DNA of 47,493 bases from a virus, in the UHGV virus genome UHGV-0021965; one strand, 5' to 3'. Shown one piece after another: positions 18,001 to 21,000 of this stretch. Within the stretch, counting starts at the first letter, position 1; each line of letters starts with the position of its first letter. Position numbers: made by a program.

Positions 18001-21000
18001 GGGGGATAGACCAGTGAAACTTAATCTATTCCCAGTCGCGATTGTCATCATAACTGGCCTGTCAGTCGCACTCGTTAAAAGTTGTTCAGACGCCAGCGGT
18101 CTGCAGAGTGATAACGACGTTCTGAGAAGTGACAACACTTTGCAGGGACAGGTGATCGCCACGCAGGCATTCAACTTTAATCGGTTCAATCAGGTAGCCG
18201 AACATGCCAACAGGCTTAATTCTCTGATAGACACCAGCACCGAAGAAACCGTAATCGAATACCGGGAGATTCTCCGCCGTGAAAAGACCTGTGATCTGCC
18301 TGTTCCTGCTGACATTGCTGGTGGGCTGTTCGAATACGCGCACCGTTTACGTGCCAGCGCCATGTACGCCGATTCCGACAGAGCTAACGCGGCCAATGAT
18401 AGTTCCGTTTCCACCAGAGCAATGACGTATTGTCAGGCAGTTCTCTGGATTAAGCCGTTGCTGGCTGTAATTGAAAAAGGCAACAATAATTTTGCTGGTA
18501 TACGTCAGATACAACGTGAACAGGAAAATTACAATCACTAGGTAGTTGCATTTGATTATTAATCTTCTGAAGATAAATTAGTAGTTTTTTAGCAAGCCAT
18601 AAATGGTAATTAACACGTGACAAGCTTATTCATTTTCGAGTGGAGATTGGAAATCCTTAAGTGAAGATTCCATTTCTTGTGCCTTATTGCCACTTTCTGC
18701 AGGTTCAATAATGCTCCAATTGAATATAAAATCTTTAGTGATATCTAAAGCTCTTTTCTTTTCAGGTTCTGAAACAGGTAATGAAGGCGAGTCGATGAAC
18801 CAATAAGAATCGGCTTTGTATGGAGTGGCGTAAATTATGACCTTTCTGTATTGATCGTCAAGTATATAACGACCATCTAATAGTTTTGGCTTTTTGATTT
18901 TCATCTTGTTTATTTCTTCAAAAAGTTGAGCTGTCTTAAATTCTTTTTGCATGGTCATATCCTTGTTGATAAGAAATGGGCTCAAATGAGCCCATGAATT
19001 ATTTCTTTTTGCTGTCTGGAGTTTTATTGATTAATTCCCACTCGTGCCCCTTTTGAGAGGTAGGTGGTAATTTTTCATTATCTTTCACAGTTGCATAGTT
19101 TTCTTTTTTACCACCGCGCGGACCAACTTCTTGCCAGATGCCGCCGTCATCGGTGTAGGTTCCAGGCTTTTGAGCCATGATTAAGACCCTCAAGATAAGA
19201 TGTCGATATTGACATCACTTCTTTAGATGGTGCTTAGGGATATGAATTCAACCAGCAAAAGTCGAAATGTTGGGTCAGGTGTATAATTATGTGATTCATG
19301 TCTTTTTTTTATGCAATTCATTGTAATTGATAATTTTTCGCGTTTGTTCGGGTCCTTTCCGTCTATCGAAGTAATTACGGGGCGGCGACCTCGCAGATTC
19401 TCGCTATTTATGAAAATTTTCTGGTTTATGCCATTTCCGTTCTTCTTCTTGTTTTCTCATTGTTTTTGTTGAAAACATCCTCTCTCCAGAAAGGAAATGC
19501 TAAGCATGGAAAACGGAAGTTAACCGTTGATTGTTTCCTTTCTCTGTTTTGTGCCAGGAGTGAGCCATGGAGGTTAACAAAAAAAGCTTATCCGAAATTT
19601 TCGGGGTGAGCGTCCGAACGATTCAGAACTGGCAGGAGCAAGGTATGCCGGTTGCCCGCGGTGGTGGCAAGGGTAATGAGGTTCTCTTTGAATCTGCTGC
19701 CGCAATCGAATGGTACAGTGCGCGCGATGCAGCCATAGAAAATGAAAAGTTGCGGAAGGAAGTTGAAGATCTCCGCATTGCTTCTGAGTCCGATCTTCAA
19801 CCTGGCACGATTGAATATGAGCGACACCGACTTACGCGAGCTCAGGCTGACGCTCAGGAATTAAAAAATGCAAAAGAGTCCGCTGAAGTGGTGGAGACCG
19901 CATTCTGCACGTTCGTGCTGTCGCGGGTAGCCGGAGAAATTGCCAGCATTCTCGATGGAATACCTCTGTCGGTTCAGCGGCGCTTCCCGGAGCTGGAGAA
20001 CCGACATATTGATTTCCTCAAGAAAGACATCATTAAGGCCATGAACAAAGCAGCTGCGCTGGATGAAATGATACCGGGGTTGCTGAGTGAATATATCGAA
20101 CAGTCAGGTTAAGGGGCTGCAGCACTCTGCGCGGGCGGGGCTACGTTCGCTTTACCGGCCAGAACCGCAAACAGCGGTTGAATGGGCAGATGAGAATTAC
20201 TATCTCCCGAAAGAGTCTGCCTACCAGGAAGGGCGCTGGGAAACACTGCCATTTCAGCGTGCAATTATGAATGCGATGGGCAATGACTATATCCGCGAAG
20301 TGAATGTCGTTAAATCTGCTCGTGTCGGCTACTCAAAAATGTTGCTCGGCGTTTACGCATATTTCATCCAGCATAAACAGCGTAACTCCCTGATATGGTT
20401 GCCAACCGACGGTGACGCTGAAAACTTCATGAAGTCTCATGTCGAACCGACCATTCGTGATATTCCGACGCTGTTGGCGCTTGCTCCCTGGTACGGCAAA
20501 AAACACCGGGACAATACGCTTAGCATGAAGCGTTTCTCAAATGGTCGTGGTTTCTGGTGCCTGGGCGGTAAGGCTGCAAAAAACTACCGTGAAAAATCCG
20601 TTGATGTGGCTGGCTACGACGAGCTTGCCGCTTTCGATGATGACATCGAGAAAGAAGGTTCTCCCACCTTTCTGGGAGATAAGCGTATTGAGGGTTCTGT
20701 ATGGCCAAAATCCATTCGCGGCTCTACACCGAAAGTCAAAGGTACGTGCCAGATAGAAAGGGCTGCTAAGGAGTCAGAACATTTTCTTCGGTTCCATGTT
20801 CCATGCCCACACTGCGGGGAAGAGCAGTATCTGAAATTTGGCGATGAAGAGACACCATTTGGCTTTAAATGGTATCCGGGAGAACCTTCCAGCGTTTACT
20901 ACCTCTGTGAACACAATGCCTGTGTGATTAAACAACAGGAGCTGGACTTCCTTGAGGCCAGGTATATTTGTGATGAAACAGGTATCTGGACGCGAGACGG

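What the first reader, a model, noticed from the sequence alone, without database searches (positions are those of the whole stretch)
18542..19378. AT-rich antisense two-gene cassette between the lysis genes and cos
Two small genes on the minus strand (18999-19178, 59 aa; 18626-18952, 108 aa) sit in a sharply AT-rich island in the position lambda uses for bor. Each has its own ribosome-binding site; a palindrome (ATGGGCTCA-tt-TGAGCCCAT) separates them. The first product is Gly/Lys-rich with a KGHEWE segment; the second resembles no family I recognise. A small effector followed by a slightly larger partner, transcribed against the late operon, is the usual layout of toxin-immunity or toxin-antitoxin pairs and of small lysogen-expressed exclusion systems.
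Basis: inference. Interest (0 to 1): 0.65.

Follow-up and report, generated by a model that had tools for sequence, protein, structure and literature searches.

The report
Heat-shock-promoter moron with two small genes
Two real small genes were inserted backwards between a lambda-like prophage's lysis genes and its packaging site; they look like two independently mobile passenger genes behind a heat-shock-type promoter, not a toxin-antidote pair, and what their proteins do is still unknown.

Summary
A 780-bp AT-rich island (18542-19321, 36% GC against 51%) carries two minus-strand genes, each with a ribosome-binding site, separated by a stable hairpin. Both evolve as coding sequence.

The toxin-antitoxin or immunity reading is not supported.
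- Gene 1 (59 aa) belongs to the phage P22 orf59a family (PHROG 3202, sub-threshold YjzC). This soluble protein is strongly conserved across Proteobacteria. It stands alone in 78 of 80 viral contigs.
- Gene 2 (108 aa) founds a very rare family with no Pfam, PHROG, PADLOC or PDB match. Its predicted fold is confident (pLDDT 91) and has no structural neighbour. Distant members occupy the same lysis-terminase slot, either alone or behind unrelated small genes (DUF2158, DUF6953).
- Within the cassette clade, gene 1 protein is invariant while gene 2 drifts to 67% identity, so the two do not co-evolve.

The new finding is the only sigma-32-type promoter match in the window (TTGAAt-N13-CaCCATcT), directly upstream of gene 1. 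It recurs upstream of homologues of both genes in unrelated lineages. The hairpin is gene 1's own terminator with a shortened T-tail.

Best reading: a stress-inducible moron, with gene 1 made abundantly and gene 2 by read-through. Protein functions remain unknown.

The parts
18542..19321 (-). AT-rich inserted island (moron) between the Rz stop and the cosQ-side sequence shared with relatives
   Evidence: 36.0% GC against 51.4% for the window. Phage and E. coli relatives match up to 18486-18511 and again from about 19322, but not in between. HK225 and Eeyore lack the insert.
19225..19251 (-). Sigma-32-type promoter: -35 TTGAAT (19251-19246), 13-nt spacer, -10 CACCATCT (19232-19225)
   Evidence: It is the only match in the 47.5-kb window to TTGAA-N13-15-CMCCATNT; 0.02 are expected by chance. 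Both hexamer blocks are invariant while the spacer varies in sequence at a fixed 13 nt. Of 14 matches across 108 loci, 13 lie directly upstream of gene 1 homologues. No sigma-70 promoter was found there.
19199..19216 (-). 5' leader stem-loop GATGTC-AATATC-GACATC between the promoter and the ribosome-binding site
   Evidence: One pair changes U-A to U.G to C-G across L003/L005 and L004. Different stem-loops sit at the same place in the Yersinia, Xenorhabdus and L116 versions. A palindromic operator is an alternative reading.
18999..19178 (-). Gene 1: 59-aa soluble basic protein of the P22 orf59a / PHROG 3202 / YjzC-like family
   Evidence: PHROG 3202 E=2e-24. 68-70% identical to P22 orf59a. PF14168 scores 20 bits against a cut-off of 25. 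dN=0 with dS 0.19-0.27. Homologues at 52-73% identity in 80 genomes across Proteobacteria and beyond.
18968..18995 (-). Intercistronic hairpin ATGGGCTCATTTGAGCCCAT plus a short U-tail (UUCUUAUC): gene 1's intrinsic terminator, predicted leaky
   Evidence: Flagged as terminator-like; fold. Solo gene 1 copies end with a hairpin plus T-run in the same place: P22's annotated terminator, L116's homologous ATGGGCC..GGCCCAT+TTTTAATTTTTT, and Yersinia, Xenorhabdus and L016.
18626..18952 (-). Gene 2: 108-aa soluble acidic alpha/beta protein, founder of a very rare unannotated family
17996..18541 (+). Rz (i-spanin) with embedded Rz1 (18279-18425), convergent with the cassette; left boundary
   Evidence: translations; annotated homologues in LLS. 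No terminator-like site on the minus strand between gene 2 and about 17168. Read-through transcripts would therefore run antisense into Rz.
19380..19391 (+). cos cohesive-end sequence GGGCGGCGACCT; right-hand landmark
   Evidence: sequence. The first base of the phi80 records, annotated as the 12-base sticky end, aligns at window position 19379-19380.

Best explanation
The island is a moron: a self-contained transcription unit added between Rz and cos.

Architecture, read directly from the sequence:
- a sigma-32 (heat-shock) type promoter;
- a short leader with a 5' stem-loop;
- gene 1, a 59-aa soluble protein of the P22 orf59a / YjzC-like family;
- gene 1's own intrinsic terminator;
- about 23 nt later, a second ribosome-binding site and gene 2, a rare 108-aa alpha/beta protein.

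Inferred operation: in a lysogen the unit is transcribed by RNA polymerase carrying sigma-32. Transcription would rise with heat or protein-folding stress, including the stress that accompanies prophage induction or infection. It would be independent of the Q-dependent late operon that runs through the island in the opposite direction. Most transcripts stop at the hairpin, giving abundant gene 1 product. A minority read through the shortened U-tail, giving a low level of gene 2 product. These transcripts then run antisense into Rz, because no further terminator follows.

The two genes are independently mobile small cargo genes stacked in one hotspot. They are not a cognate toxin/antidote pair. 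Both products are cytoplasmic. Gene 1's extreme conservation suggests that it binds a conserved cellular component as a stress-induced small protein. Gene 2's activity is unknown.
For: Insertion:
- Relatives skip 18542-19321.
- GC content is 36% against 51%.

Promoter:
- It is the only window match to TTGAA-N13-15-CMCCATNT, with 0.02 expected by chance.
- It fits the published consensus CTTGAA-N13-17-CCCCATNT. Most E. coli sigma-32 promoters lie within 100 nt of the start codon (PMC4263515); here the -10 ends 47 nt from the ATG.
- The two hexamer blocks are invariant while the 13-nt spacer sequence varies among L003, L004, L005 and the window.
- The same motif lies upstream of gene 1 homologues in Xenorhabdus, Phaeovulum, Psychrobacter and a Rhodocyclaceae genome. 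The Yersinia form is TTGAAA-N13-CCCCAATT.
- Among 80 genomic loci, 10 reach a motif score of 11 or more, against 1.7% of shuffles.
- It also precedes a solo gene 2 relative (L028, GTTGAAA-N14-CCCCATTG) and a DUF2158-DUF6953-gene 2 cassette (L025, CTTGAAA-N12-CCCCAATT).

Terminator:
-.
- Distant cassettes also place a hairpin plus TTTTC just before gene 2.

Independence of the two genes:
-.
- Gene 1 protein is invariant while gene 2 is 67-98% identical.

Stress theme:
- Chromosomal gene 1 copies neighbour XRE plus IrrE/ImmA-type regulators and the DUF3892 and DUF1508 small proteins.
- The chromosomal DUF2158 protein YodC is tightly sigma-S controlled in Salmonella (PMC5437024).

Solubility.
Against: - No transcript data are available. 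The promoter call rests on sequence pattern and comparative conservation only.
- The -10 has A in place of the second C. Many gene 1 homologues, including the P22-like clade, lack the motif and seem to use a sigma-70-like promoter or read-through from mnt.
- The leader palindrome could be a repressor operator rather than an RNA stem.
- Leakiness of the terminator is inferred only from its short U-tail.
- Gene 2 sits behind a terminator in two unrelated cassettes. This could equally mean that it must be kept low because it is harmful, which leaves room for an effector role.
- No biochemical function is established for either protein. I did not predict a structure for gene 1.
Confidence: 0.55

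Rival explanations
1. Toxin-antitoxin or toxin-immunity pair: one product poisons the cell or a competitor and the other neutralises it by direct binding.
For: - Two small adjacent co-oriented genes sit in a mobile, AT-rich island.
- The gene 2 family always lies promoter-distal, and in two unrelated cassettes directly behind a terminator hairpin. That fits a product that must be kept scarce.
- All five metagenomic loci and both IMG/VR loci that carry a close gene 2 also carry gene 1.
Against: - No hit to any toxin, antitoxin or defence model.
- No DNA-binding antitoxin domain was found.
- Gene 1 is solo in 78 of 80 viral loci and in dozens of chromosomes.
- Gene 2 relatives occur solo or with different upstream genes.
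- There is no co-variation: gene 1 is invariant while gene 2 falls to 67% identity.
- A terminator, not translational coupling, lies between the two genes.
Confidence: 0.07
2. Stress- or infection-triggered superinfection exclusion or abortive-infection module. The sigma-32 promoter senses the proteotoxic load of an incoming or induced phage and switches on an effector, most plausibly gene 2.
For: - The slot is a known site for lysogen-expressed cargo.
- P22 orf59a lies beside sieA and mnt in the immI region.
- The promoter would couple expression to stress.
- Gene 2 has an orphan fold and is held behind a terminator.
- The prophage carries other defence-type cargo, an AbiTii-domain protein.
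Against: - No PADLOC match.
- SieA alone suffices for P22 exclusion (bioRxiv 10.1101/2023.08.15.553423).
- Neither protein has a membrane segment or a recognisable nuclease, NTPase or protease motif.
- Gene 1 is common in non-prophage chromosomal contexts across Proteobacteria.
Confidence: 0.15
3. An ordinary constitutive lysogenic-conversion moron. The sigma-32-like motif is not used, transcription starts from a weak sigma-70 promoter, and the leader palindrome is an operator for a phage or host repressor.
For: - P22-like copies have a sigma-70-like TTGACT-17-AATATT upstream and sit downstream of mnt.
- The leader element is a perfect 6-bp inverted repeat. Its one variable pair keeps both DNA symmetry and RNA pairing.
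Against: - The consensus scan finds no usable sigma-70 promoter upstream of gene 1.
- The conserved blocks are exactly the sigma-32 hexamers at the correct spacing in several unrelated lineages.
- The U.G intermediate in L003 and L005 favours RNA pairing.
Confidence: 0.15
4. Gene 2 is a decaying or spurious ORF, and only gene 1 matters.
For: Gene 2 lies behind a terminator, is extremely rare, and has no annotated relatives.
Against: - dN/dS is 0.15-0.33 over dS up to 1.1, and the ORF is intact in every copy.
- A family alignment down to 28% identity has 9 invariant columns.
- AlphaFold2 gives pLDDT 91 from only 10 sequences.
- It has a conserved ribosome-binding site.
Confidence: 0.03

Closest known systems
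Phage P22 orf59a (immI region, between mnt and sieA); PHROG 3202
   Same: Gene 1 is 68-70% identical over its full length. It has the same length, is followed within a few bases by an intrinsic terminator, and sits antisense to the structural genes as prophage cargo.
   Different: The genomic slot is Rz-cos in a lambda-like phage rather than gp16-tailspike in a P22-like phage. The promoter is sigma-32-type here, against mnt read-through or a sigma-70-like promoter in P22. An extra gene is appended downstream. The function of orf59a itself has never been determined; I found only incidental mentions.
Pfam PF14168 YjzC-like protein (Bacillus subtilis YjzC)
   Same: A small protein of about 60 aa with the same pattern: PG...G.Y.E.G..G, then a P.T motif and a conserved W. 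Of 25 family members, 18 hit the model, with a best E-value of 4e-5.
   Different: The window protein scores 20 bits, below the 25-bit gathering cut-off. The proteobacterial/phage branch is a distinct and far more conserved subgroup. YjzC also has no known function.
Lambda bor and the 'moron' concept (Juhala/Hendrix)
   Same: The same slot between Rz and cos, the opposite strand to late transcription, its own promoter and terminator, deviant base composition, and absence from close relatives. The position and orientation of bor rest on my own knowledge.
   Different: Bor is an outer-membrane lipoprotein. These products have no signal peptide, lipobox or hydrophobic segment. The predicted promoter is a heat-shock type.
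Sigma-32 (RpoH) heat-shock promoters, consensus CTTGAA-N13-17-CCCCATNT
   Same: gTTGAA-N14-CaCCATcT, with the -10 ending 47 nt from the start codon and spacing in the natural range.
   Different: There is one mismatch in the C-run. The promoter drives phage cargo genes rather than chaperones or proteases. Activity is untested.
DUF2158 (YodC) / DUF6953 small-gene cassettes in the lysis-terminase slot of other prophages (L021, L023, L025)
   Same: They hold the same slot and orientation. A gene 2 relative is the last gene, and a hairpin plus T-run sits just before it. In L025 a sigma-32-like promoter comes first.
   Different: The upstream genes are unrelated to gene 1: hhalign probability is 0.04. 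These cassettes share only 28-42% identity in gene 2.

Membership tests
Type II toxin-antitoxin / toxin-immunity pair | At least one partner homologous to a known toxin, antitoxin or immunity family | tested here: not met
   No hits in Pfam, NCBIfam, PADLOC or PHROGs apart from YjzC and PHROG 3202, both of unknown function.
Type II toxin-antitoxin / toxin-immunity pair | The two genes are inherited together as an obligate unit | tested here: not met
   Gene 1 is solo in 78 of 80 viral loci and in many chromosomes. Gene 2 relatives occur solo or with other upstream genes.
Type II toxin-antitoxin / toxin-immunity pair | Cognate partners co-evolve | tested here: not met
   Gene 1 protein is 100% identical across loci in which gene 2 is 67-75% identical.
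Type II toxin-antitoxin / toxin-immunity pair | One product is toxic and is neutralised by the other | not testable with these tools
   This needs inducible expression of each gene alone and of both together.
Moron (independent cargo transcription unit in a phage genome) | Inserted between genes or sites that are adjacent in related phages | tested here: met
   HK225 has 343 bp and no gene between Rz and cos. Eeyore runs from Rz to the terminase gene. Homology resumes at 19322.
Moron (independent cargo transcription unit in a phage genome) | Own promoter and terminator | tested here: met
   Sequence-level evidence only: a sigma-32-type promoter and a hairpin terminator after gene 1. There is no terminator after gene 2.
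Moron (independent cargo transcription unit in a phage genome) | Base composition different from the surrounding genome | tested here: met
   36.0% GC against 51.4%; lowest 0.9% of windows.
Moron (independent cargo transcription unit in a phage genome) | Expressed from the repressed prophage | not testable with these tools
   This needs transcript data from a lysogen.
P22 orf59a family / PHROG 3202 | Full-length significant sequence similarity | tested here: met
   PHROG 3202 E=2.1e-24 over residues 1-57. tblastn to P22 orf59a gives 68% identity over residues 1-58.
Pfam YjzC (PF14168) | Score at or above the gathering threshold (25 bits) | tested here: not met
   20 bits, E=8.6e-4. 18 of 25 relatives hit at E<=0.1. 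The protein is related but sub-threshold.
Sigma-32-dependent promoter | Match to CTTGAA-N13-17-CCCCATNT within about 100 nt of the start codon | tested here: met
   gTTGAA-N14-CaCCATcT at 19251-19225. It is unique in the window, with 0.02 expected by chance.
Sigma-32-dependent promoter | Conservation of the two elements and their spacing across diverged sequences | tested here: met
Sigma-32-dependent promoter | rpoH-dependent, heat-inducible transcription | not testable with these tools
   This needs in vivo or in vitro transcription assays.
Bor-like lipoprotein / Sie-type membrane exclusion proteins | Signal peptide with lipobox, or transmembrane segments | tested here: not met
   The maximum 19-residue Kyte-Doolittle hydropathy is -0.83 for gene 1 and 0.29 for gene 2. 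Neither protein contains Cys.

The most novel reading that the evidence does not exclude
The lysis-terminase slot of lambda-like prophages hosts a class of sigma-32-gated cassettes, in which small unrelated genes share a heat-shock promoter. Within them, the rare 108-aa protein with an unmatched fold would be a potent effector. It would be held at a low level behind a leaky terminator and released when proteotoxic stress, including a phage infection, raises sigma-32. It would act in abortive infection or exclusion, or as a modulator of the host stress machinery.
Probability: 0.12. Interest if true: 0.7.

Novelty: new variant of a known kind. Interest (0 to 1): 0.42.

Why it matters
Morons are usually described as constitutively expressed in lysogens. 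A heat-shock promoter that recurs in front of unrelated small cargo genes, in the same prophage slot and in several bacterial lineages, would show that prophages wire cargo genes into the host stress regulon. This can be tested directly.

The finding also gives two small-protein families a concrete handle for experiments. One is P22 orf59a/YjzC-like: widespread, 52-73% identical across Proteobacteria, and still without a function decades after P22 was sequenced. The other is new, very rare, and has a confident predicted fold with no structural neighbour.

Finally, it removes a tempting but unsupported toxin-antitoxin annotation.

Tried and rejected
Searches that found nothing useful:
- Pfam, NCBIfam, PADLOC and PHROGs on both proteins and on the family alignments. 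Gene 2 gave nothing. Gene 1 gave only families of unknown function.
- PDB sequence and profile searches for both proteins: nothing significant. The best single hit, GTSF1 at E=0.013, was not reproduced by the profile search.
- Gene 2 searched in the phage records, plasmids, one genome per species (GTDB) and complete E. coli genomes: no match. JGI metagenomes gave one extra locus.
- Rfam over the island: only chance-level hits.
- Literature on orf59a, YjzC, DUF2158 and sigma-32 in prophages: no functional study of either family. Most YjzC hits were strain names or grant codes.

Attempts that failed or were limited:
- The first AlphaFold2 run of gene 2, with 5 close sequences, was unusable (pLDDT 45). 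Adding 5 distant relatives fixed it.

Hypotheses tested and rejected:
- That gene 1 and DUF2158 are remote homologues, which would have made the two cassette types equivalent pairs. hhalign probability is 0.04.
- That gene 2 has its own promoter inside gene 1. Neither a sigma-70 nor a sigma-32 pattern is present there.
- That the alternative 119-aa TTG start for gene 2 is used. It lies inside the hairpin and is not supported by the homologues.
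Full report
**What is there**

The window is a complete lambda-like prophage, running from integrase through the early region, Q, lysis genes, cos and terminase to the tail genes. Its relatives include E. coli phages Eeyore, LLS, HK225 and phi80.

- Gene 1: 19178-18999, 59 aa, with a GAGGG ribosome-binding site.
- Gene 2: 18952-18626, 108 aa, with an AAGGA ribosome-binding site.
- The palindrome ATGGGCTCATTTGAGCCCAT (18995-18976) lies between them. It folds into an 8-bp stem.

The island 18542-19321 is 36% GC against 51% for the window, in the lowest 0.9% of 780-nt windows. 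It lies between Rz/Rz1 and the cos end GGGCGGCGACCT at 19380-19391.

DNA searches show that related phages and E. coli prophages match on both sides of this island but not inside it. HK225 goes from Rz to cos in 343 bp with no gene. Eeyore goes from its Rz-like spanin to the small terminase gene. LLS has a different, forward-strand gene there. The island is therefore an insertion in a variable slot: a moron.

**Both genes are real**

The same pair occurs on five independent Logan contigs and two IMG/VR contigs. It always lies between the lysis genes and a terminase, which can be the lambda Nu1 type or the Terminase_4 type.
- Across these copies, gene 1 has 6-8 synonymous and no non-synonymous differences.
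- Gene 2 has dN/dS of 0.15-0.33, with dS up to 1.1.
- DNA identity to the window is mosaic. The leader, gene 1 and hairpin are 93-100% identical in L003 and L005, where the promoter region and gene 2 are 78-80% identical.

**Gene 1**

Gene 1 matches PHROG 3202 (E=2e-24). It is 68-70% identical to P22 orf59a, which lies between mnt and sieA and is followed by an annotated terminator.

It scores below threshold on Pfam YjzC: 20 bits against a cut-off of 25. Of 25 relatives, 18 hit that model.

The family is remarkably conserved. Proteins of 57-65 aa (mostly 57-62) with 52-73% identity occur in Alpha-, Beta- and Gammaproteobacteria and in a few other phyla.

It is normally a single gene.
- It is solo in 78 of 80 IMG/VR contigs.
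- It is solo in Yersinia and Xenorhabdus prophages in the same lysis-terminase slot.
- It is solo in P22-like prophages, found in 115 of 5,426 complete E. coli genomes.

In chromosomes it often sits next to an XRE repressor plus an IrrE/ImmA-type metallopeptidase, or beside the DUF3892 and DUF1508 small proteins.

The protein is basic (pI 9.0), very hydrophilic, and has no membrane segment. I found no functional study. The only relevant mention is that a plasmid carrying sieA, orf59a and mnt excludes P22, and that sieA alone suffices.

**Gene 2**

Gene 2 has no Pfam, NCBIfam, PADLOC, PHROG or PDB match.
- Among 5.8 billion protein clusters there are four close relatives, all from raw-read assemblies.
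- A profile search of 1.84 billion representatives adds five distant small proteins at 28-36% identity.
- It is absent from the phage, plasmid, one-genome-per-species and complete E. coli collections. JGI metagenomes hold one more locus.

The distant relatives sit in the same slot, antisense between the lysis and terminase genes, and are always the last gene of their unit. Their upstream neighbours differ.

| Loci | Co-oriented genes upstream of the gene 2 relative |
|---|---|
| L021, L025 | DUF2158 and DUF6953 |
| L022, L111 | DUF6953 |
| L023 | DUF2158 |
| L028 | none |

DUF2158 is not related to gene 1 (hhalign probability 0.04).

**Why this is not a toxin-antitoxin or immunity pair**
- Neither protein has a family match to such systems.
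- Each gene exists without the other.
- Gene 1 is invariant where gene 2 has diverged by a third, so the two do not co-evolve.
- A terminator rather than translational coupling separates them.
- Neither product is a membrane protein or lipoprotein, unlike Bor and the Sie-type exclusion proteins.

What remains in favour is weak. Gene 2 is always promoter-distal and, in two unrelated cassettes, sits directly behind a terminator hairpin. That would suit a product that must be kept scarce.

**Regulatory anatomy: the new point**

Upstream of gene 1, the alignment of diverged copies shows two invariant blocks, GTTGAAT and CACCAT-T. They are separated by 13 nt that vary in sequence but not in length.
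- This reads gTTGAA-N14-CaCCATcT, a close match to the sigma-32 consensus CTTGAA-N13-17-CCCCATNT (PMC4263515).
- It is the only such match in the 47.5-kb window, with 0.02 expected by chance.
- The sigma-70 scan finds no usable promoter there.
- Of 14 exact matches in the 108 loci held at that point, 13 lie directly upstream of gene 1 homologues. These include Xenorhabdus, Phaeovulum, Psychrobacter and a Rhodocyclaceae genome.
- The Yersinia copies have TTGAAA-N13-CCCCAATT.
- Among 80 genomic loci, 12.5% reach a motif score seen in 1.7% of shuffles.
- A sigma-32-like element also precedes the solo gene 2 relative in L028 and the DUF2158-DUF6953-gene 2 cassette in L025.
- The P22-like copies lack it. 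They appear to use a sigma-70-like promoter or read-through from mnt.

A 6-bp stem-loop follows the promoter (19216-19199). One of its pairs changes U-A to U.G to C-G across the copies. It could equally be a palindromic operator.

**The hairpin between the genes is gene 1's own terminator**

Solo copies end in the same way.
- P22 has its annotated terminator.
- Yersinia, Xenorhabdus and L016 each have a hairpin plus a short T-run.
- L116, a solo copy 95% identical to gene 1 in the same slot, has the homologous hairpin ATGGGCC..GGCCCAT followed by TTTTAATTTTTT.

In the window the tail is cut to TTCTTATC by gene 2's ribosome-binding site. No promoter pattern lies inside gene 1. I therefore infer partial termination, with gene 2 made from read-through transcripts. 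No terminator follows gene 2 before about 17168, so read-through RNA would run antisense into Rz and Rz1.

**Most likely mechanism, and what is shown against what is inferred**

Shown:
- the island is an insertion;
- both genes are under purifying selection;
- their family assignments, and their independence from each other;
- the sequence-level promoter and terminator, with comparative support.

Inferred:
- transcription by sigma-32 holoenzyme, heat- or proteotoxic-stress-inducible, in the lysogen;
- abundant gene 1 and scarce gene 2;
- a cytoplasmic stress-related role.

The stress theme has indirect support. Gene 1 keeps company with XRE/IrrE-type regulators. Other family members use stress-linked control. 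The chromosomal DUF2158 protein YodC is sigma-S-controlled in Salmonella (PMC5437024). The biochemical activities of both proteins are unknown.

**Novelty and score**

The kind of element (a moron in the bor slot) and gene 1's family are known. Gene 2's family, and the recurring heat-shock-type promoter on cargo genes in this slot, appear not to have been described. I rate this a new variant of a known kind, with moderate interest (0.42). It is testable and mildly surprising, but no function is established and it does not bear on a long-standing question.

Noticed in passing
window 46329-47297 (-): A 322-aa protein with an AbiTii abortive-infection domain (PF18864, E=1e-35) lies near the right end of the prophage. 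This is a more conventional defence candidate than the cassette under study.
   Followed up: partly
window 42478-45598: A cluster of DNA-damage-related cargo sits beyond the tail genes. It includes a UmuC-like Y-family polymerase (42975-44243, +), with a possible UmuD-like ORF upstream (42478-42972) that I did not check. It also includes a DUF4431 protein (44358-44879, +) and an SRAP/YedK-like SOS-response peptidase (44915-45598, -). The window's lowest-GC stretch (about 44160-44900, 34%) lies here.
   Followed up: partly
window 251-1084 (-): A 277-aa ORF beside the integrase sits in another AT-rich stretch (about 35% GC) and has no Pfam match. It may be further cargo at the attachment-site end.
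   Followed up: partly
L021 4449-5309; L025 193-978; L023 4632-5285; L022 1922-2525; L111 2706-3309: Other prophages carry a different small-gene cassette in the same lysis-terminase slot: DUF2158 (YodC-like), then DUF6953, then a distant gene 2 relative. A GC hairpin plus TTTTC sits just before the last gene. In L025 a near-consensus sigma-32-type promoter (CTTGAAA-N12-CCCCAATT) lies in front.
   Followed up: partly
L041-L043, L047, L049, L055-L058, L064, L068, L071-L078 and others (genome contigs): Chromosomal gene 1 homologues across Proteobacteria are often transcribed divergently from an XRE repressor plus an IrrE/ImmA-type (Peptidase_M78) gene pair. Others sit in a row with the DUF3892 and DUF1508 (YegP-like) small proteins. 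This suggests that damage- or stress-responsive control of the family is widespread.
   Followed up: partly
window 18999-19216 compared with L003/L004/L005: Synonymous divergence of gene 1 (dS 0.19-0.27) is three- to four-fold lower than that of the adjacent gene 2 (0.57-0.87) in the same contig pairs. The leader and hairpin are also nearly invariant in L003 and L005, less so in L004. Either the gene 1 unit was exchanged recently between cassettes, or its RNA is itself under constraint.
   Followed up: no
window 18279-18425 (+) within Rz 17996-18541: A typical embedded Rz1 o-spanin lipoprotein ORF (MKRPVICLFLLTLLVGCS...) sits in the +1 frame of Rz. The lysis cassette has a 100-aa holin candidate (17179-17481) and a SAR-type endolysin (17478-18017). 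An N6/N4 DNA methyltransferase (16058-17110) lies between Q and the holin.
   Followed up: no
L001 2401-2500 (P22) and IMG/VR P22-like loci L120-L193: In P22-like phages a hairpin plus T-run (CCCACC-TGAA-GGTGGG TTAATTTTT) directly follows the mnt stop codon. A sigma-70-like TTGACT-17-AATATT lies in the 100-bp mnt-orf59a spacer. orf59a may therefore be its own transcription unit rather than simply the distal gene of the mnt operon, as the record's 'mnt terminator' label implies.
   Followed up: no
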